A DNA stretch of 64,000 nucleotides, taken from the NCBI GenBank assembly GCA_963693365.1, contig CAVNZM010000016.1:5262543-5326542 (forward strand), in the 5' to 3' direction. Source of the stretch: Amoebidium appalachense (lineage: Eukaryota; Protista; Ichthyosporea). Made by a program: the position numbers and the translations under genes. Of the stretch, positions 2,404 through 61,655 are shown in pieces; within the stretch, counting starts at the first letter, position 1, and each line of letters opens with the position of its first letter. The notes under the pieces were generated by a model, which was not told the origin of the DNA, did no database searches, and saw nothing but the letters and a program-made list of their open reading frames with translations.

Positions 2404-3508
2404 GGGGGGGATGTTACCATGGTGCCCATTGCTGCGCCATCCAGATATTCCTTTTTAGGAAGGTGGCCGAGAAATATGGACGTTACTATGGAGGGGAACA
2501 CCTCGAGAATGAAAGTGAGCACCTGCATGTTGAGTGGACGAGATATGACAGGGATGAGATATACCTGGTAAGTTATGTGTTGCTCAACCGTCGACAGCAT
2601 AAGCCTTATGATAGTCACTGAATATCACGCGGAAATTGCAGCATGACTGGACATTAAGACATAATGCCGGAGAGGGTGAACCCATGATGATCGGTCTCCA
2701 GGGCATTATTGTCGTCTGTGGTACATGGGAATAGCACGAGGGCAAGCACCTTGAAAACGTTAAAAATAACATGGCGGTGTCTCGAGTATATCATAGTACT
2801 CAATCGTTATGATGTACAGTACTTGATACTGCGGTTTACCGGCTCATGATTTACTATCATAACCCAAAAAAACTATCAGTGGGAGTTGGAGGTGCGCAGG
2901 TGGGGAGGGCGGGTGGCATGTTCATGTCATGAGTATTTGCAGGCAGAGGGTGTTGGCTTTTGGGGGGGAGGGAGAGGGGGGAGGGGTGGTGGTGGTGGTG
3001 GTGGTGGTGGTGGTGGGTGGGGGGGGGGGGGGGGGGGGGGGGAGGCACTGACCACCGGCCAGGCGAGGGAGCTCAGAGTTTTGAGTTCATGTTTGTACGA
3101 TAGGGGGGTGGAGTCTAGGATGAGGGCATTCTCATCCCTGAAACTGGATGATGTCTCCCTGAGGCTCTCCTAATGAAAGGTCGCACAGGACGGGTGTGTT
3201 TTGGGGGGCAGGGGGAGGGGAGGGGAAGGGGGGGTGAGGGGGGGGGGGGGGGGGGTTAGAAGGAACCACACTCACAGTGAGCGAGGTACACATTCACGAC
3301 GGACAAATTAATGCAGATGTTGCAGAGCATACACGAAGTCTTAAGAGTGTGTCGCATGCTATGACAAGTAGATCAACTCCTCATGATCAGAGGGGCCCTA
3401 AGCCATCCATATTGAACAATAGCATCCGGGGGAAGGGTGAGAGGGAGCTAGAGACGGGGAGATAGGGACTTGAAACCTCCCCCCCCCCCCCCCCCCCCCC
3501 CCGGGGGA

Positions 3509-20130: not shown

Positions 20131-20597
20131 CCCCACCCGAATATCTTTTTCGCGATCTTACAAGATTAGGCAGGTCGGCGATTTACTTAGTATGTTTGAC
20201 TTGTGTTTGATAACAATAAAGGTGTCTAATGCCGACTAGAGCTCACGCCTGCCAGTGCATGCGCACGTGTACCATTTATGACACCACGGCGACGGACCTC
20301 AAGTCTTCAACCAACCAGATCGTCTCAGCATGATTCCCAACCCGGGCCCAGGCTGTACAGCCGCTCAAAGCTTTGTTTTGGCTTTTAATTTTAGCCCTTC
20401 AACACCGTGACACGTATTGTATATAAACGCCCACGACACTGTTCTTCTACCCTCACAAAACTACAAGTTGTTGTGGAATCCTCTGGCCAAAGCCCGAAAC
20501 TACATCCTGCTCCCAGAATCTACGAGATTGTTCATCTTCTCAGCGACGTGACTGTCCGACCTTACCTGTGCTCCTATTTTGTGACATCCTTGGCAAC

Positions 20598-21506
20598 ATG
20601 GCACGCCTTCACGTTAGCCCCATTCCATACAACTGGAAGGAGGGAGAGCTAACGGGCTTCTTTTCTTCGTATGGGATACCCAAGAACATCATCGTCAAGG
20701 ACGGCTTCGGTAGGTGGCAAAAGCTTCACACCATTGTTTCACACCATGTGACAAAAGTTTGCTGTTCACATGGCATGATTTGATTTTGGTTGACGAATCC
20801 ACCTCTCTTGTCGACCAGCCCTGTCTATACCTTGTGTCACCATCGTCTCCAAGTGATTCAGCATTTCTCGACAACATCCTTGTTCTAGACATTAGCAAAA
20901 ATTACTTTGGGTTTCCCCCTCCCCCGGCCATCGCAATAACCCCCCTCCTTGCCCTTTTGGCAGCTGCTCTCTAACCGACCAAGTTCCATCATGCTTAGAA
21001 GTAACTATCTAATTCAGAGTAGTTCAGTTAACCTTTTCCTGTCCTCCCTTCCAAGAATCCCTCTTCCTCCCACATTCCACATGTCCAAAAACAGAAGTCA
21101 CAGTGTTGTCTGACCCGTTTTGTGCAACCACCCCCATGGCGCCACTGAAGTCTTTTCCTTCGTTCATCTTTTTCATCCACACACGATTCTTTCCGCACCA
21201 GGGTTCTCCCCTCTCACCACAACTTGGGCTACCACACGACCACCAACCTCACTCCCCCTGCACCTCCCCCCAGCCCTCCTCCTTCCCTCTTCCATCTCAC
21301 CTCCTCCCATTTCATTCCCTTCATTTCCCCCGCCACGTCACCCCACCAACACACACTGGCACACACACACACACACACACTCACACACACTCACACACTG
21401 ACACACAAACCCTCAGCATCTCACCTGCTCTCCCAACTCTCACTCACTCCCCCACTCCTCCCCCCCCCCCCCCCCCCCCCGCCCCACCCAAAAAAAAGCT
21501 CCCATC

Positions 21507-21537
<31 letters not shown>

Positions 21538-22301
21538 CACACACACTCATGCAGGGTTCATCGAGTATGACACCATAGAGGAGACCAAGCGGGCCCAGAA
21601 GGAGCTGCAGGACAGAGACCTCGGCAGGGGCCCAGTCAGCATCACTATCATCCGCCAGCCTGAGCCTTGTACGTGTTTCTGGGGGTTTCTGGGTGTTTGT
21701 ATGCCTAAGGCCCTTTCTAGATACCTGTGGGTTCTGACCGTGTTATCTGAACCTGACTTTACTACCCCCCCCACCCCCCCCCTCCCCCCCCCCCCTTCTT
21801 CCCCCCCCCTCAACCTCCCCCCCCCCCCTCCCGCCGGCCCTGTCATCCTTTCTGCCCATCGACTCCCACCCGTCCTCCTACCGTTGACCCCTCTCACCGT
21901 TGCGGGTAGTGGGGTGTGGTGGGAGGAGGGACGGAGTGGGGGGGAGAGGGGACACACCCCATCGACTCGGACACAGAATACAAACCCATACACTTTCCCC
22001 CTCCCCAGTTTTACCTTGCCCGAAATCCCCCCCCCCCCCCCCCCCTCCCCCCCCCCCCCCCCCCCTCCCACACACAAATGCGCATAAAAAATGATGACAA
22101 AGCCAACAATAATGAAAATATCAACAATATCAATAACAGCAACACAACTGCGAACATACAATACACATCAAATCCCCTATGTGTTGCACTGCCACTTTGA
22201 ACATGCACCAGGTGGGCCTAGAGTCTGATGGTGGGTGGTTGCAGACAAGCAGGTCGAGAAGCGCAGGCACGAGAGTCCCGAAGCAAGAACGGATCGTGAG
22301 G

Positions 22302-22334
<33 letters not shown>

Positions 22335-23420
22335 CACAAGCCTCCGATCCCTTTTGCCATTTCGGCTCTTCTCTACCGCTACCCTCTGTATTACCCCCCT
22401 CCCCCCCACCCGTGTTTTTTCCTCTTCCATTGGGTTGTCCATCCTATCAGGACGCCCCCCTCCCCACCTAGGCGCCCCTCTCTCTACCAGTTTCGTGTAT
22501 TCATATGCTCTTTCTGATTACACGTCCCCCCTCCCTTCCCCCCCCACCCTCTCCTCCCCCCCCCCCTCCCCCCCCCCCCCCCCCTCATCCCCTTTCCCTC
22601 CTTTGCCACAGAAATCCAATGTTCTTCTGTACCCTTCCCTCCCCTCCCCTCCTCCGGCTCCCTTTACATTGCCCGTTCCGCTTTTCCGACTCACGCACCC
22701 CCCCCCCTCCCCCCCCCCCCCCCCCCCCCCCCCCGCCACCCTCCCCCCTCTCCCCCCACTCCCACCCACTCTTAAGCCTTCCCAAAGCCCATTTCCATAT
22801 CTTTTGTGGGCCTACTGGCTCTTCTAATATGTTCTGTGCAACTCTGCTCGTTTTCTCGTCATCCATGTGTGTGCCTTACACACACAGCCCTATGGGTCTG
22901 TCTATTCTCTCTTCGTAAAGAAAGCCCTCTGCTCATGAAATTCTCATCTTGCTCCTCCCCCCCCCCCCCCCGCCCCCCCCCCCAAACACACACACTCACA
23001 CCTGTCCACACCCACTCATCCCCCCCCCCCCCCCCCCATACCCGCCTGCTTACCCGCCTTCTTTCCGCAACGCCCCATCTTCCCACCTATGACACCCACC
23101 TCCCAGCTACCCCCTCCCCACCCACCCTAACCCCCCTTCCCTTCCCTCTTCTCGCCTTCCCCTTCCCCTCTTCCATTTTGGTTCTAGGAGAACACAGGGA
23201 CGGTGGAGAAAGTGGGAGGGACTAAGTAGAGAGCCGGTTGGGTGGATGGCTGGGACTAGGTGTATGGACACACCCACACCCACACACACACACACACACC
23301 CACACACACACACACACACCGTCTCGCCCCTCCCTCCCCCTTCCCTTTTTTCTCATTCTCTCTCTCTCTCTCGCAAGGTAGAGTTCTCCCCCTCCCAGCT
23401 CTGTCTCCCCCCCCCCCCCC

Positions 23421-23453
<33 letters not shown>

Positions 23454-26400
23454 ACACACACACACAATACTTAACCCCTATCTGCCACCCCCACAGCTTC
23501 GGATGGAAAAGGCAGCCAAGGAGATACTCGAGTGTGTGGGTGAGGACCCGGACAGGGAGGGTACGTCACAACTATCCCCCCCTCCCCCCCTCGTCCCCCT
23601 CCCCAACCCCCCCCCCCCCCCCCCGGGCCCCCCATAGCCCGTTTTCCGGCCTGCCCCCCCCCCCCCCCCCCCCCCCCCCCACACACACACACGTGACAAC
23701 CACATAAACACCCTCGATCTCTATAACTACATACCTATATGCCCACCCAGTGAGTCCCACCTAATCCATCCCCACTTCCGGTATTGTTTGCATCTGTGTA
23801 GTCTATCTATAGCTAACGCACAGTTTTTTGCCTTCAAAGTTATTCTTCGTATGGTGGACAGTCTTTTGACCCCCTGCTCGTACCATTGAACCCCACCCCC
23901 AACACCACCACCATCACCCCATCCACCCACACACACAACCTCCAACTTCCCTTCCTTCCCTGCTCACATTTTCTCCCCGCCCGGACTCGCCGAAAGACAC
24001 ACACACACCATCATACACACACACACGCACGCACACACGCACCTCAGTTCCTACTTTTCCCCCTCCCTCTCTCTCCCCCCCCCCATGTCTCTGTTAGTGA
24101 CACTGACAACGTGCATGTTTCAGGCCTTCTCAAGACACCTCTGCGTATGGCCCAGGCTATGCTCTTCTTTACTAAGGGCTACCAACAGACCCCGGCTGGT
24201 ATTTAACCATACTCCCCCCCTCCCCTCCCCCCCCCTCCCCCCCCCCCCCCCCGCCCCCCGCCCCTCTCCCCCTGGACTTTCTTTGTGCCATGTGCTTTGC
24301 AAACTTTGCATTGTTGTCCGTCGTGAATGCCAGTGTACTTCGTTCACTCCAACACATTATAATCCCCCCCCCCCCCCCCCCCCCCCCCCCCTTCTCCCCC
24401 CCCCCCCCCCCCCCCTGCGCGCCCCCAGCCCCGCCCCCGCCCCCGGATTCAGGTTGGCTGGGTCACTGAGTGTATAAGCTGGATGGTCGGGTTACATGTA
24501 TGTTCAGTGTTCTTCAGAGTTCTTGGGTTGAAATCATGTTTAGCCTTAAGGAGAAAGGGTTCATTTTGAAATTTCACTATGTAATTGATCAAATTTCATA
24601 TGTAGGATTATCGGCCCCCACTGAGTGTCGGAAGTTAGGGAGTATGGGGGATTACGATCTGCCGTTATGCACATGCATGGTTCATGGCCGCACTCAATTT
24701 GATTGGTGGAGATATAACGGACCAATAGTCTCATATACCATATATGGTATATGAGGAAATTTAGTTTTGAACCCTTTCTCCTTAATGGATTCACGGTGCG
24801 TGTGTTTATGGGATGTGGTTCGTGGGTTAAAGGGCATACTCTGGAGGAGCCCTGAAGGGAATATAGCAGGGTGCTATTCAATTGATTTTCACACATGTGA
24901 CGAGGGTTTAAGGGATACTATATCAGGGCGCTCTTTCAATTGATTTTCACACATGCGACATGGGTTTTAAGGGATATATCAGGGCGCACATTTGATTGAA
25001 TTTCACACATGCGACGTGGGTGGCAAGGGATATATCAGGGCGCTCATTTGATTGATTCTCACACATGTGATGAGGGGTTTAAGGTAATATGTCAAAGGGC
25101 TGACCGATTGTACTATCACACATGTGCACGTGGGGTTCACTCGCACCCACCTATGCACACGTACACACAAGCGTGCACACGTACGTGTGGAACGACATAC
25201 ACACAAGCAGACACTGTAGACTCATGGCCGGGCAGGGCACATGCCACACACGTGGGCCAACATACACGTGAACATGACACAAGTTGTACACCGTGTCGGT
25301 GTCTTCCTCGCATCTGCACACCCACACAAACGGACACATGCAGTGCACGGCCATGTCAAACACACGTATGCAGACTTACACACACACACACATGTACACG
25401 AACACGTACACGTAGACACCCACACACACAAACAAAAACACACACGTATGCAGAGGTGATGAACGGTGCAGTGTTTACATGCACACATGCACACACATGC
25501 ACACACACACACACACGTGCACACACACACACACACACACACACGAACACGCACACGTACACGTACACTCTGACTGACACGTGCACGTATGCAGAGGTGA
25601 TGAACGGTGCCGTGTTCGAGGAGGACCATGACGACATGGTGATTGTGAGGGACATTGAGATCTTCTCCATGTGTGAGCACCACATGGTCCCCTTCACCGG
25701 CAAGGTGTGTGTGTGTGTGTCACAGTGTTTGGCCGTTTGGACGTGTGGGGGTGTGCGTGTGCGCGTGTACTAGTATGTGGCTGGGTGGGTGCTTGATTGG
25801 ATATGTATGTGTGTGTGTATCTGTGTGTGTGTGGCCTTCTGTGTGTGTATTTGTGTGTGTGTGTGTGTCCGTGTGCTACATATAAGTGTGTCGTGGGTGG
25901 TTGGGTGGGGTGATGGTGGTTGTTTGGTGGTGGTGGTAGGTATGGGGATTGGCTGGGAGAATGTATATAACATCGTCCGAGTCCCCCCTCCCCCCCTCCC
26001 CCCCTTGCCCCGCTTTTCGCCGCTCCCCTTCTAAGAATGGGTGCTACTTATGTTGCATGAAGTTATCCCTGTATGGATTTGTAGTCCATACTGTGAACAG
26101 CATTCTTAAAAAAAAACCCTGTTCCCCCAGATCCACATCGGCTACATCCCCTACAAGAAGGTGCTTGGTCTGAGCAAGGTGGCCCGCATTGCTGAAATTT
26201 ACAGCCGCAGGCTCCAGGTCCAGGTATCTACAAAACACCCCAAAAGAATATCTATAAACACCCCTGAAAAATACATATATACCTCATTAAACCCCCCTCC
26301 CCGCAAGAATATCATGATGCTCCCCTGAAAAACATCCAGGGTCCCGGGTTAAGTGTTTCCTGCATACTTCTTTTGGTCTCTTTTTTTGTCTTTGTTTCCT

Positions 26401-27260
26401 TTTATAGCCGTCCGCTGGGCCATGCCTTTTCCTTCGCTGTCCCCAACTTTCAACACATACATATCATTCCCCCCCCCCCCCCCCCCCCTGGTGCAGGAGC
26501 GGCTGACCAAGCAGATTGCTTGTGCTCTGATGGACACGGTGGAGCCCCGCGGTGTGGCCGTGGTCATGGAGGCAGCGTAAGTGTGTGTGTGTTTGTACGT
26601 GTACGTGTACGTGTGTGTGTGTGTGTGCGCACGTGAGTGTACGCGTATGTGTTGTGTACGTGTACGGGTGTGGGTGTACGTGTGTGCACCTCCTCTCTCT
26701 CTCTGTCTCTCTCTCTCTTTCTGTGTGTGTGTGTGCGTGTGTGTGTGTGTGTGAATGTACACGTGTGTACGAGTGAATGTGTGTGTGTGTATGTGTTTGT
26801 ATCTGTGTGCCGGCGTATATCCTCCCTCCCCCCTCCCCCCTTCCCCCCCTCCCCCACCTTTCAATCTGCTCGCCTGTGTCCTCGGCACTTCCTTCCTTAA
26901 AGCACCGGCTTGTTGATCCGTCCACTGGGCCCCTTCACACATGCTCCCCCCCCCCCCCTCCCCCCCCCCCCCCCCCCCCCCCCCCCCGGGCCTTCCCCTC
27001 TTCCCCCCGGGCGTCGTGTGCCTTTGTGCTCGGTTTGGTTGGTTTCAATATAACCCATACCCTCCACCCCCCCGACCCCACCCTCCCTCCGTGGCACACA
27101 CACACACACACACACACACAGGCACATGTGCATGGTGATGCGTGGAGTGCAGAAACCCCACGCCTCCACCACCACCAGTGTCATGCTTGGAGAATTCCGT
27201 GAGAGCAACAAGACCAGAGAGGAATTCCTGTCTCTGGTCAACCGCCCCTCTGCTAGGTAA
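20598..27260 (+). CDS. GCH1: GTP cyclohydrolase I with N-terminal RRM domain (9 exons, ~280 aa)
   Basis: Exons 20598-20709, 21555-21668, 22245-22300, 23497-23560, 24124-24198, 25595-25704, 26131-26223, 26497-26576, 27122-27260, all GT-AG and phase-compatible. GCH1 motifs [55 protein letters not shown] motifs LHVSPI (RNP2) and DGFGFIEY (RNP1). The enzyme call is near certain; the linker exon 22245-22300 is the least certain part. Confidence 0.9.
24860..25095. repeat. Minisatellite, ~55 bp unit, ~4 copies, inside a GCH1 intron
   Basis: Repeated ttgattttcacacatgcgacgtgggtttaagggatatatcagggcgc. Confidence 0.8.
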
Positions 27261-35954: not shown

Positions 35955-36470
35955 TCACAATGTCGGGCACACACAGTCGGTCGCGGTGACGGACATGAGT
36001 CGGGCCGGGCAGAGGCTTTGCGAGGATGTCAGCCAGGTTGTGAGCTGACTCAACGTACTACGGATAACAATGTCCCCACTGGCAATGTAATCCTTGGTGT
36101 TGTGGTACCGTACAGCAATGTGTTTGGTACGGTGTTTGATGCCGGTGGAATTGACGATGGCAATTGTAGCCTGGTTGTCACAATGCACCGGGGTGGGGGA
36201 AAGCATGGGACAGCCGAGCTCCTTGAAGAGGTCACGGACCCAAACAACCTCCTGGGTGCCAGCATTGAGAGCTATAAGCTCGGCCTCGGTGGTGCTGGTG
36301 GCCGTGATGGGCTGGAGCTTGGAGTACCAGACGATGGGCATTCCGGCAAACTCGATGACGTAAGCGGTGGTAGACTTCTTGCTGTCAGCACAACCAGCAA
36401 AGTCAGCACCCGTGTAGCACTCGAGGATGGGGGCCTTGGTGGCAGAGTACTTGTAGTCAATGCCGACTGA
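35955..36470 (-). mobile_element. Ty1/copia RNase H remnant
   Basis: ECYTGADFAGCADSKKSTTAY...IVWYSKLQPITATSTTEAE...HCDNQATI...RTKHIAVRYH: standard copia RNase H motifs; frameshifted near the end. Confidence 0.9.
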
Positions 36471-41123: not shown

Positions 41124-42718
41124 CTATTCCTTTCTGCTCACTCTCCCCCCCCTTCCCCCCCCTCCCCCCCCCCCGTCTCTCACTATCCCCCCCTCCCCCT
41201 CCTTCTCTTCTTCAAACAAAATATAAGCAGCACGAGAGAGAGCATCACAGTCAACCATTGTTTCACCCTTGGCATAAAACAATTTATAGGAGAACTCACC
41301 GAGAGCCGCGGCCCACTTCTGCATCCTCTCGTTGACCAGACGAGTGGTGCCGGCCATGGCTAGGCAGGGCTTGTGGTCGGTGTAGACCTCAAACGTCCTG
41401 CCTGCGAGTATATACCTCCATGCCTGTGAGACTGCCCAAAAGATAGCATGGGACTCTCTCTCCGGATTGCTATATCTACGTTCACTTTTACTAAATGAAC
41501 GACTAGCATAAGCAATCACTCTATCCTGCCCCTCCTGCACTTGATATAACACGGCCCCCTCAGCAACCTTACTTGCATCACACCGAACTTTAAACATCCC
41601 CCCCCCGGCCGAAAAATCAGGATGAACAAGCATACTCGAAGACTGCAAAGCTAACTTAAGCTTTTCGAAAGCAGAAACAGCATCAACATTCCAATCTATT
41701 CTATTCTTCTTCTCCCCCCCCCCGTCTGACTAGTTAACGGCAAAGCAAGCATACTATAATCCTTAATATAACGACGAAGATAATTAGTTAAACCTAAAAA
41801 TTGCCTTAGTTGAGTGACAGTCTGAGGACGGGGCCACTCAACTATGGCCCGGATTTTCTCCGGATCAGGGGAAAGACCATTACTAGACACAATATGACCT
41901 AAAAACTTAACCTCCGGCACACCAATCACAGTCTTGCTACCGCTAATACGAAGACCAGACTCACCCAAAGCTAAAAATACTTTTTCACAATTATTAACTA
42001 ACTCCTCAAATGACCTACCTTTAATTAAAACATCATCCAAATAAGGGTGGCATACATCCAAATGAGGGTGGAGAATTTTATACATTACCCGGCACAACAT
42101 AGCTGGAGAGGAGAGCAAACCCATCGGCACCACCTTGTACTGGAACAGCTGGTCACCCAGTGCAAAGGCAGTCTTCTCCTTGCTGCTCTCCTCCAACCTT
42201 ATCTGCCAAAAAGCTGCTTTTAAATCAAGTTTAGCAAAGTGAGTATAGCCGTGCAGCTGTGAAAGCTGCTCGTCTATGTTAGGGAGAGGCCATTGGTCTG
42301 CCTTAGTGATCCGATTCAGAGCCCTGTAATCGTTCACTAGACGCCAAGACCCGTCGGGCTTCTTAACCAATAGCACCGGACTTCTCCACGGACTCGAACT
42401 ATGCTCCACATGACCCTTTTTTAACATATCACTCACTATTATTAGCGCATCCGACAATTTATACTGCTCCATTCTATAGCTAGGCATCACTACCGGCCTA
42501 TTATCACCTGTGTCGATCTGCATTTCAAACCCTTTAACGAAGCCTACTTCGTTATCATCGGCCAGAAATGCAAACCGAGTCCTATCAAATAACTTAGCTA
42601 GCAATTTTTTCTGTTCTACCGTCCAATCCCCCTCCTTCATACCAAACGGCAATACTAACTCCGGGTTACCCCCATCACAAGTGGATGCATCCTTATTCAC
42701 CGGAGTGCCACTTAACAT
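41124..42718 (-). CDS. Reverse transcriptase and RNase H; apparent frameshift at the poly-C run ~41714-41722
   Basis: SPVLLVKKPDGSWRLVNDYRALN, LDLKAAFWQI, PMGL, YLDD, FLGH; RNase H CDAS, YASR, VYTDHK, DALSR. Confidence 0.95.
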
Positions 42719-59885: not shown

Positions 59886-61655
59886 TCAAGCATCGATTCT
59901 CTTAAATCGCACCGGCATTCCATTTTTAGGCGAGAGTGCGACCCTAATTGTCCATTCCGGCTCTTCCTCCGATCCGGGCAACACCTCATATCGAAGGAAG
60001 AGAGAACTGATTACAGCTTTCATCTCAAAAAGCGCGATCCGAGATCCGATACACATGCGTGATCCAACGCCAAACGGGATATTTGCGAATTTGCGATCTC
60101 CCTCGTCCCCTGAAAGCTCCCCCCATCTCTCCGGCCGCAGCTTCTGCGCGTCTTCTGGCGTCGTGTTCCAAATTTCGGGATCGCGGCTCATGGCGTAGGT
60201 ATTTAGGACACACACCTGTGGATATGCCAGGGTTAGATAGATACACCAGAAACCAAGTAGCAGGTAGTGCGACACGGGTGGGTCTTCCGAAGTTCAAGAA
60301 AAGACATTATTGCTATTTTTCCGTTTTCTGAGAACATGGGTGGGGTGTGTGTGGGGAGGGGGCAAGAAAAAGGGGAGGAGCGCGGAAGAGGGGGGGAGGG
60401 CGGGGGGGGATAGAGTATCATGTATGGTAGCCAAAAAAACGAATCACTCACGTGCACCCACACAAGCACGACTGCTTCGAAGAACATGCCCACATGTACA
60501 GAGGCTCACTACCTTATTTTAACCCTACAGATTACATAGATAAGCCAAGCAACTTACCCCCCCCCCCCCCCCTTCCTCCCCACCCCACCAACACACACAC
60601 CAAACCATCCGAAGACTACCAAGACTCCATTGCAACGGGAAAAGCTGCATGGCCAGAGTGAGGCTTCCAACCCATTCAATCTTCTTAGATAAGGCCCGCT
60701 ATCATGGGTGTTAGCTTCCAGATGTACCGGGAAAAAAAGAGGGGGGGAGGGGGGAGGGGAGGGGGGGGGGGGGGGAGGAACTTCATGCTATGAACGAGTG
60801 ATGAGTGTGGGCCCATGTATGCATAAGAGCTAACAGTAATGTAACAAAAACAACTACAACATCGATAAAACTTCACATGAGTGCTCCCACCCACCGTGTT
60901 TTCCGGAACGAGATATTTCTGCTTCCCGTTGCCCACCACCACAGGTTTGGTTGTGGTGCGAGGAATGCCAAAGGCCACCGGCATCAAGCGCATGGTTTCC
61001 TTAACCACATGGTCGAAATATCTGGTATATCCAACCATGTGAGATATGCTAATGTGGTTGCATCATTGCATAGAAATTGTTCTTTTCTTTTTGTTTGTTT
61101 GTTTGTTGGCGGAAGGAGGGGGGAGGGGGGAGGGGGGGGGGGGGGGGGGGGGGGGGAGGACAGGAGGAAAGAGACAGATGCACATGCACACACGGACAAC
61201 CACACCCACACAACCCCCCCTCCCCCCCCTGCCCCCCCCCCCACACACACTGAGCCTCAAATCTAGGCTAAGAGGAAGAGGGTTTGGTGTGGTTGCCGTG
61301 TGTGTGTATGTGCACGCACGTGCACGTTTGTGTGTGTGCCTGTGTGTGATTGTGTGTGTGTGTGTGCAGGCGCTCATGTCTCTGGCGGTTACAACCTGAG
61401 AGAAATGGGGGGGGGGGGGGGGGGGGGGGGGGGGGATGGGTCTAAGCCTACGGTGCATGCATGCAGGAGTGAAGAATGGACTGTGTGTGTATGTGTGCAT
61501 TTGTTCGTGCGTTCGTTTGAGTGCGTGCGCGCGTGTGTGTGTGTTTGAGAGAATGCATGCATTTAAGTGCATGTGTGTGTGTGGTCTTTCGGGGAGAAGG
61601 GAGGAAGAGGGGAGAAAGGGAAGAAGGGGGAAAGGGCTGGCGTGCCGGTGGCGGG

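What the first reader, a model, noticed from the sequence alone, without database searches (positions are those of the whole stretch)
20598..27260. RRM RNA-binding domain fused to GTP cyclohydrolase I
Seen: exons 1-2 encode a compact RRM ([70 protein letters not shown]) with no stop. It splices in phase via [19 protein letters not shown] into a complete GCH1 with intact zinc ligands (CEHH, HMC). Known: GCH1/FolE is a homodecamer that starts folate, BH4 and bacterial 7-deazaguanine synthesis; eukaryotic N-terminal extensions are normally low-complexity, and I do not recall an RRM fusion. Inference: a decamer displaying up to ten RRMs could bind RNA multivalently (autoregulation, RNA-gated activity, granule targeting).
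Basis: partly seen in the sequence, partly recalled or inferred. Interest (0 to 1): 0.82.

Follow-up and report, generated by a model that had tools for sequence, protein, structure and literature searches.

The report
RNA-recognition domain fused to GTP cyclohydrolase
In a group of single-celled relatives of animals, GTP cyclohydrolase I, the enzyme that starts folate and pterin synthesis, is spliced into one reading frame with an RNA-recognition domain that two other genera also carry, so this enzyme likely binds RNA and is likely regulated through it.

Summary
Confirmed, and conserved beyond this genome. Nine GT-AG exons (20598-27260) give a 280-aa frame: RRM (1-71), linker, complete GCH1. 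One intron-free 1013-nt contig from a run with the same species label (about 94% identical) runs through exons 1-5, across both junctions in question. The two nearest GCH1 relatives found, from Sphaeroforma arctica and Creolimax fragrantissima (79% core identity; clade support 99/97), carry the same N-terminal domain, which their precomputed Pfam records do not flag; none of the other 227 GCH1 hits does. The Creolimax domain passes Pfam RRM_1 and models as an RRM. The three RNA-stacking positions are kept (His5, Phe/Tyr37, Phe39). The RRM replaces the tail and GLSWPS motif of six unfused holozoan-clade orthologues. The fusion therefore likely arose once in ichthyophonid Ichthyosporea. RNA binding is untested; an invariant Asp at RNP1 position 1 and a neutral charge count against it. 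My paper searches found no description, and the scan had not noted it before. New variant of a known kind; interest 0.66.

The parts
20598..20709 (+). Exon 1 (coding part): start ATG; RRM strand 1 with RNP2-like LHVSPI, helix 1, strand 2, start of RNP1
   Evidence: the orthologues start at the same Met; RNA contigs cover it, and one has a 1-nt insertion just upstream of the ATG, as fits a 5' UTR
21555..21668 (+). Exon 2: rest of RNP1, helix 2, strand 4 of the RRM, RQPEP hinge
22245..22300 (+). Exon 3: helical linker (QVEKRR motif shared by the three fusions); homologue of the helix before the core in unfused GCH1
   Evidence: helix 79-85 in the Creolimax model
23497..23560 (+). Exon 4: first helix of the GCH1 core (holds Met97, ATG at 23503)
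24124..24198 (+). Exon 5: GCH1 core
25595..25704 (+). Exon 6: GCH1 core with CEHH (Cys167, His169, His170)
   Evidence: (E 4e-13)
26131..26223 (+). Exon 7: GCH1 core, GLSK and SRRLQVQ motifs
   Evidence: (E 2e-11)
26497..26576 (+). Exon 8: GCH1 core
   Evidence: E 9e-6
27122..27260 (+). Exon 9 (coding part): HMC (His236, Cys238), C-terminal helix, stop TAA
   Evidence: (E 3e-11)

Best explanation
This is one spliced gene whose reading frame joins an RRM to a complete GTP cyclohydrolase I; the RRM likely binds a short single-stranded RNA on its beta-sheet, and in the predicted ten-subunit ring it would act as the enzyme's regulatory domain, in the place where other GCH1s carry a regulatory tail. 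Shown: the gene, the splicing of exons 1-5, the same architecture in two other ichthyophonid genera, the kept zinc and catalytic motifs, and the loss of the older tail motif. Predicted: the RRM fold (modelled on the orthologues). Inferred: a single gain in an ichthyophonid ancestor; assembly into the usual decamer; RRMs standing out from the rim on the long N-terminal helix, where ten weak sites would give avid binding to one RNA; and feedback between enzyme and RNA. The RNA I favour is an mRNA of the pterin/folate pathway, its own included, with binding tied to GTP or pterin occupancy (about 0.2-0.25 for that specific version).
For: Intron-free contig across exons 1-5. Orthologous fusion in P0187 and P0226: E 6e-10 and 1.5e-10 among 229 GCH1 hits, next best E 0.28; window plus these two form a clade at 99/97. 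Creolimax RRM_1 21.4 bits against cut-off 20.7. Sphaeroforma 1-78 matches RRM models at TM 0.80. [quoted passage not shown] With only 32-48% identity between the three RRMs, the 15 invariant residues cluster on strands (R3, H5, S7, K34, D35, G36, F39, S66, T68), with one in helix 1; that they face the RNA-binding side is inferred from strand alternation. The three stacking positions defined in PMC1635273 (passages) are His5, Phe/Tyr37, Phe39, and that paper reports a 160-fold affinity loss when the Fox-1 sheet histidine is mutated; the Fox-family protein ASD-1 aligns its RLHVSNIPF with the window's RLHVSPIPY. Strain differences in the RRM: 5 silent, 5 replacement, no stop, pN/pS 0.29, p 0.05 (weak). 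The GCH1 N-terminus is a regulatory site in animals and perhaps Plasmodium (PMC4005822, passages).
Against: No binding or enzyme data exist. RNP1 position 1 is Asp in all three (consensus Lys/Arg) and RNP2 position 5 is Pro (consensus Asn). The domains are neutral to acidic (K+R / D+E 10/10, 9/10, 9/12). The Sphaeroforma domain has no Pfam RRM_1 hit at E up to 1. The loop aromatic used by Fox-1 is Tyr/Phe in two but Thr in Creolimax. Only three sequences support the conservation pattern. The window's own spliced protein was not folded. Contigs cannot exclude a minor GCH1-only transcript or a start at Met97.
Confidence: 0.52

Rival explanations
1. The fusion is real, but the RRM sheet binds something other than RNA: a protein partner, the GCH1 core itself, or a small flat ligand such as GTP or a pterin stacked on His5/Phe39. 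It would then be a built-in allosteric domain doing the job that the tail and GFRP do in animals.
For: Invariant Asp at RNP1 position 1 and no net positive charge. The RRM replaces a motif (GLSWPS) found in 6 of 6 unfused holozoan-clade orthologues and in 102 of 217 GCH1 hits with CEHH, so it may have taken over that motif's role. Several close structural matches are RRMs solved in protein complexes (raver1-vinculin, cap-binding complex).
Against: All three canonical stacking positions are kept together with Arg3, Lys34 and Arg71, the pattern of a nucleic-acid-binding sheet. SR-type RRMs among my hits also lack Lys/Arg at RNP1 position 1 (KNG).
Confidence: 0.32
2. The RRM is a passenger, kept only as a folded cap (stability, solubility, an N-terminal start exon) with no ligand.
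For: It diverges much faster than the core (32-48% against 77-91% identity). N-terminal deletions of up to 100 residues do not impair Plasmodium GCH1 complementation (PMC4005822, passages).
Against: The invariant residues are polar or aromatic strand residues rather than core or helix residues. The domain has been kept in three lineages whose cores differ by about 20%.
Confidence: 0.13
3. Two separate genes, or a chance in-frame reading: the RRM exons belong to another transcript and GCH1 starts at its own ATG (23503).
For: Met97 exists and is conserved. The runs are one sample, kept as contigs, of a diverged strain, and their RNA status is the tool's guess.
Against: One contig bridges exons 2-3-4 with 45 or more letters in each piece. 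Exon 2 has no stop before its donor. Two independently annotated genomes give the same fused protein with the same spacing. The Met at that position is also present in unfused orthologues, where it lies inside the protein.
Confidence: 0.03

Closest known systems
Eukaryotic GTP cyclohydrolase I (type IA, FolE/GCH1/Fol2; PF01227; human 1fb1 and 6z86, rat 1is7)
   Same: Complete core; CEHH and HMC motifs; about 70% identity to fungal GCH1 hits; the orthologue's model fits rat and human GCH1 at TM 0.94-0.95, rmsd about 1.6.
   Different: A folded RRM stands where others have a low-complexity tail; the GLSWPS motif of fungi and unfused unicellular holozoans is gone.
Metazoan GCH1 regulated through its N-terminus and GFRP; Drosophila Punch isoforms with regulatory N-terminal extensions
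   Same: The added domain sits at the N-terminus, the known regulatory site (PMC4005822 passages; Higgins and Gross 2011 and Funderburk 2006 seen only as titles in its reference list).
   Different: Those tails are unstructured peptides controlled by a separate protein or by phosphorylation; here it is a globular nucleic-acid-binding fold. Whether ichthyosporeans have GFRP was not tested.
RRM1 of SRSF4/5/6 and Npl3, and the Fox-1/ASD-1 RRM
   Same: Best single-domain matches of the three-species profile: ASD-1 30.4 bits, Npl3 27-29, SRSF6 26.1, Fox-1 25. Start at Met1 and the short strand 2-3 turn are as in SRSF6/Npl3; LHVS is as in Fox.
   Different: No RS domain and no second RRM; the donor family cannot be told from these scores.
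Riboregulated folate-pathway enzyme SHMT1
   Same: RNA control of an oligomeric enzyme of folate metabolism (10.1101/2023.03.17.532973, abstract and outline seen).
   Different: By that outline SHMT1 binds RNA without sequence specificity, using its tetramer and a flap motif; here a dedicated RRM is fused on, and no regulation has been shown.
Sphaeroforma arctica SARC_07028 (XP_014154521.1) and Creolimax fragrantissima CFRG1158T1
   Same: Orthologues with the same architecture and length (277, 278 aa).
   Different: Named hypothetical protein or GTP cyclohydrolase 1; the precomputed Pfam column shows PF01227 only. I could not check whether InterPro or UniProt pages flag the RRM.

Membership tests
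GTP cyclohydrolase I type IA (PF01227) | Complete core domain | tested here: met
   Exons 4-9 cover profile 1-178 of 179; orthologues 251-254 bits
GTP cyclohydrolase I type IA (PF01227) | Zinc ligands and catalytic motifs (CEHH, HxC, GLSK, QERL) | tested here: met
   Cys167, His169, His170, His236, Cys238, Ser192-Lys193, Glu209 present; the residue roles are recalled from the family literature
GTP cyclohydrolase I type IA (PF01227) | T-fold structure | tested here: met
   Creolimax orthologue model (mean pLDDT 89.5) against rat and human GCH1, TM 0.94-0.95; the window's own protein was not folded
GTP cyclohydrolase I type IA (PF01227) | Homodecamer and conversion of GTP to dihydroneopterin triphosphate | not testable with these tools
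   Inferred from homology
RRM (PF00076) | [quoted passage not shown] | tested here: met
   Orthologue models: topology; Z 10.8; TM 0.80
RRM (PF00076) | Pfam RRM_1 gathering score | tested here: inconclusive
   Creolimax 21.4 against 20.7 passes; Sphaeroforma no hit; the window's two exons score 12.4 each, scanned apart
RRM (PF00076) | RNP1 octamer with aromatics at positions 3 and 5 | tested here: met
   DGFGFIEY / DGYAFVDF / DGFAFVDF: 7 of 8 positions fit the consensus of PMC1635273; position 1 is Asp
RRM (PF00076) | RNP2 hexamer with Phe/Tyr at position 2 | tested here: inconclusive
   His at position 2 in all three (as in Fox-family RRMs) and Pro at position 5
RRM (PF00076) | Binds single-stranded RNA | not testable with these tools
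   No data
SR proteins (SRSF4/5/6, Npl3) | RS-rich tail and second RRM (definition recalled) | tested here: not met
   The 280-aa protein has one RRM followed by GCH1; only the RRM1 resembles them
Fox-1 family | Fox-type RRM with sheet His and loop Phe | tested here: inconclusive
   His5 in 3 of 3, loop aromatic in 2 of 3; score barely above Npl3 and SRSF6

The most novel reading that the evidence does not exclude
Ichthyophonid GCH1 is a ten-armed, sequence-specific mRNA-binding enzyme: a canonical RRM fused to the gateway enzyme of folate and pterin synthesis lets the ring read its own GTP or pterin occupancy and pass it on to the translation, storage or location of target mRNAs, or lets an RNA switch the enzyme. 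That would be riboregulation hard-wired by domain fusion, replacing the protein-based control that animals use.
Probability: 0.3. Interest if true: 0.85.

Novelty: new variant of a known kind. Interest (0 to 1): 0.66.

Why it matters
GCH1 controls entry into folate and pterin synthesis, and animals regulate it through an N-terminal tail and GFRP. A close unicellular sister lineage appears to have put a folded RRM in that same position and kept it. If the domain binds RNA, this is a natural case of an enzyme-RNA feedback loop with a conventional, mutable RNA-binding module, which is easier to dissect than moonlighting enzymes whose RNA site overlaps the catalytic surface. The gene is present in two cultured laboratory species and the protein is small enough for routine biochemistry. 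The fusion also looks like a shared derived character of Ichthyophonida that the Pfam records I saw do not flag.

Tried and rejected
Whole genome: none is held for this window, so paralogues, a second unfused GCH1, GFRP and a donor RRM gene could not be sought in it; tblastn finds no second copy inside the window. Run search: no RNA holder listed as such; the three runs came by species label, with RNA status guessed; run X3 laid nothing. Word-index search with exon 1 found no candidate, although the two orthologues were in that database, so that blank carries no weight. The HMMER search of 1.84 billion representatives with exon 1 gave 8 hits, none a GCH1 fusion among the three RRM-like ones I read. 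The metagenome scan gave 2 loci, both false: an acyltransferase-like ORF read by eye and a stretch full of stops. The viral-contig scan could not be built from the alignment. Complex prediction of the Creolimax RRM with two cores gave no verdict (score 0.62, control 0.61). The first fold, on 8 sequences, modelled only the RRM well (core pLDDT under 50) and was repeated on 43. Alignments A1 and A3 misplaced short exons and were dropped. Donor family of the RRM: not resolved. Genus of the window's organism: Amoebidium is a guess from an intron-rich, transposon-bearing genome (PMC11244446 passages), not tested. Earlier scan notes: none on this fusion.
Full report
Observation. The region is a eukaryotic gene with short exons and C-rich, repeat-rich introns. 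Joining nine exons at GT-AG boundaries gives 843 nt and 280 aa without a stop (one search had off-by-one boundaries). Third-position GC is 0.64-0.86 in all nine exons, including the two RRM exons. Pfam, run on 8 of the 9 exons separately, places exon 1 on RRM_1 positions 3-30 and exon 2 on 43-65 (12.4 bits each, E 0.15), and exons 4-9 on GTP_cyclohydroI 1-178 of 179.

Transcript. Three runs were listed by species label; none is on record as RNA and all come from one sample. They were laid on 20400-24400. Record 7 of run X2, 1013 nt, matches exon 1 at record 1-96, exon 2 at 97-210, exon 3 at 215-259, exon 4 at 264-331 and exon 5 at 332-404. The small gaps in record numbering are differing letters at exon 3's ends, and the spacing equals the predicted spliced length. 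Run X1 shows the exon 2/3 and 4/5 joints at depth about 2500-3000 and one contig across exons 1-2; X3 laid nothing. The contig differs at 24 of 396 aligned letters, so it comes from another strain or a close species. It lacks four introns exactly, which marks it as spliced. The ten listed differences in the RRM are 5 silent and 5 replacement, with no stop; pN/pS 0.29, one-sided p 0.05, weak evidence of constraint.

Relatives. Two searches returned the best 120 of 3519 and the best 120 of 7934 GCH1 hits; together 229 proteins, a biased sample and not a census. None has RRM_1 in its precomputed Pfam column. The two most similar cores are P0187 (Sphaeroforma arctica SARC_07028, 79%) and P0226 (Creolimax fragrantissima CFRG1158T1, 79%; names). 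These two, and only these 2 of 229, match the window's first 94 residues (E 6e-10 and 1.5e-10; next 0.28). Residues 1-71 alone score 23.1 and 26.5 bits against a best of 5.9 in 1000 shuffles. A tree of 40 rows that I chose (window residues 76-280, last 215 residues of the others) groups the three at 99/97, inside a nine-row clade at 99/99 with Chromosphaera, Sphaerothecum, two EukProt rows (Clim and Colp12; Corallochytrium and Syssomonas from recall) and two unnamed rows. Sphaeroforma and Creolimax are Ichthyophonida. The six unfused rows of that clade all have a low-complexity tail ending in GLSWPS, a motif found in 102 of 217 hits with CEHH and absent from the three fusions. The residues after it align with exon 3. 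The simplest reading is one gain of an RRM in an ichthyophonid ancestor, replacing the tail up to the helix before the core; the window's organism is likely an ichthyophonid. The order within the nine-row clade is unresolved, and other lineages were not surveyed for independent fusions.

The domain. The Creolimax N-terminus passes the Pfam RRM_1 cut-off (21.4 against 20.7); the Sphaeroforma one gets no hit; 1 of the 43 rows of the folding alignment hits RRM_1. A profile of the three N-termini matches 62 PDB sequences at E up to 0.01; the 60 shown are RNA-binding proteins, led among single domains by ASD-1 (Fox family), Npl3, SRSF6 and Fox-1. The Atlas model of P0187 residues 1-78 matches RRM models at TM 0.80. 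AlphaFold2 of P0226 gives strands 2-7, 35-38, 41-46, 68-72 and helices 15-26, 49-58, then linker helices 79-85 and 89-109 and the core; mean pLDDT 89.5, pTM 0.80. The domain aligns to solved RRMs with Z up to 10.8 (first model) and the core to rat and human GCH1 at TM 0.94-0.95. The three RRMs share 22 of 69, 22 of 69 and 35 of 73 residues; the cores 142 of 181, 141 of 182 and 164 of 181. Invariant in the RRM: M1 R3 H5 S7 P8 L18 K34 D35 G36 F39 T44 R58 S66 T68 R71; in the linker Q78 E80 K81 R82 R83 E88 R93. By the definitions in PMC1635273 (passages) the stacking positions are RNP2-2, RNP1-3 and RNP1-5; here His5, Phe/Tyr37 and Phe39. That paper gives a 160-fold loss on mutating the Fox-1 sheet histidine. 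Against RNA binding: Asp at RNP1-1, Pro at RNP2-5, and no net positive charge.

Mechanism. Shown: one frame, spliced across the RRM-GCH1 junctions, conserved in three lineages, catalytic motifs intact. Inferred from the family: an active decamer whose N-terminal helices lie at the rim (recalled from GCH1 structures), which would leave up to ten RRMs outside the active sites and off the faces where GFRP binds. I give 0.52 to the RRM binding RNA and serving as the regulatory domain, 0.32 to its sheet binding a protein, the core or a flat small ligand such as GTP or a pterin, 0.13 to a passenger and 0.03 to an artefact. The N-terminus is the regulatory site of animal GCH1 (PMC4005822, passages), and RNA control of a folate-pathway enzyme has a precedent in SHMT1 (10.1101/2023.03.17.532973, abstract and outline); neither bears directly on this protein.

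Is it in print? Full-text searches for GTP cyclohydrolase + RRM + fusion (18 papers, 17 listed), GTP cyclohydrolase I + RNA recognition motif (6), Ichthyosporea + cyclohydrolase (0), GCH1 + RNA interactome terms (0), Sphaeroforma/Creolimax + domain fusion/RRM (1) and cyclohydrolase with the three genus names (20 of 68 listed, none with the word cyclohydrolase) showed nothing on this fusion, judged from listings and abstracts. Term searches in the held supplements of PMC5560861, PMC4739763 and PMC6855841 found no cyclohydrolase entry, which may only mean that those tables use other identifiers. The library holds open-licence papers only, preprint supplements were closed, and InterPro and UniProt pages could not be seen, so an automatic annotation may exist. 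The scan's own notes hold nothing on it.

Verdict. Both parts are known families; their union appears undescribed. New variant of a known kind, interest 0.66; if RNA-based feedback is shown (probability about 0.3), 0.85.

Noticed in passing
window 24546-25086 (intron 5): Four tandem copies of a 56-nt unit (24861-25086, 63-84% alike) and a 30-nt inverted pair (24546-24575 / 24756-24785), like a small non-autonomous element.
   Followed up: partly
window 25445-25469: A 25-nt copy of the exon 6 acceptor and first codons lies 141 nt upstream of the true one, in frame; if used, it would add 47 low-complexity residues inside the GCH1 core. No read evidence either way.
   Followed up: no
window 36063-36464 (-) and 41301-41399 (-): Retrotransposon pieces: a copia-like RNase H stretch (read by eye, no matching Pfam hit) and an RT_RNaseH match at E 9e-5.
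   Followed up: no
window 60892-61020 (-): Exon of a cytochrome P450 gene (Pfam p450, E 2e-6).
   Followed up: no
protein P0088 (UniRef, Aceria tosichella, 774 aa): Aromatic amino-acid decarboxylase joined to GCH1 in one record; could be a chimeric transcript or a real monoamine-pathway fusion.
   Followed up: no
proteins P0020, P0130-P0134 and many fungal GCH1 hits: A conserved GLSWPS motif just before the linker helix in fungi and unicellular holozoans (102 of 217 hits with CEHH), missing from the C. elegans row shown and from the three RRM fusions; its role is unknown to me.
   Followed up: partly
protein P0136 (Rozella): Internal duplication of about 29 residues in the GCH1 core, possibly a gene-model error.
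   Followed up: no
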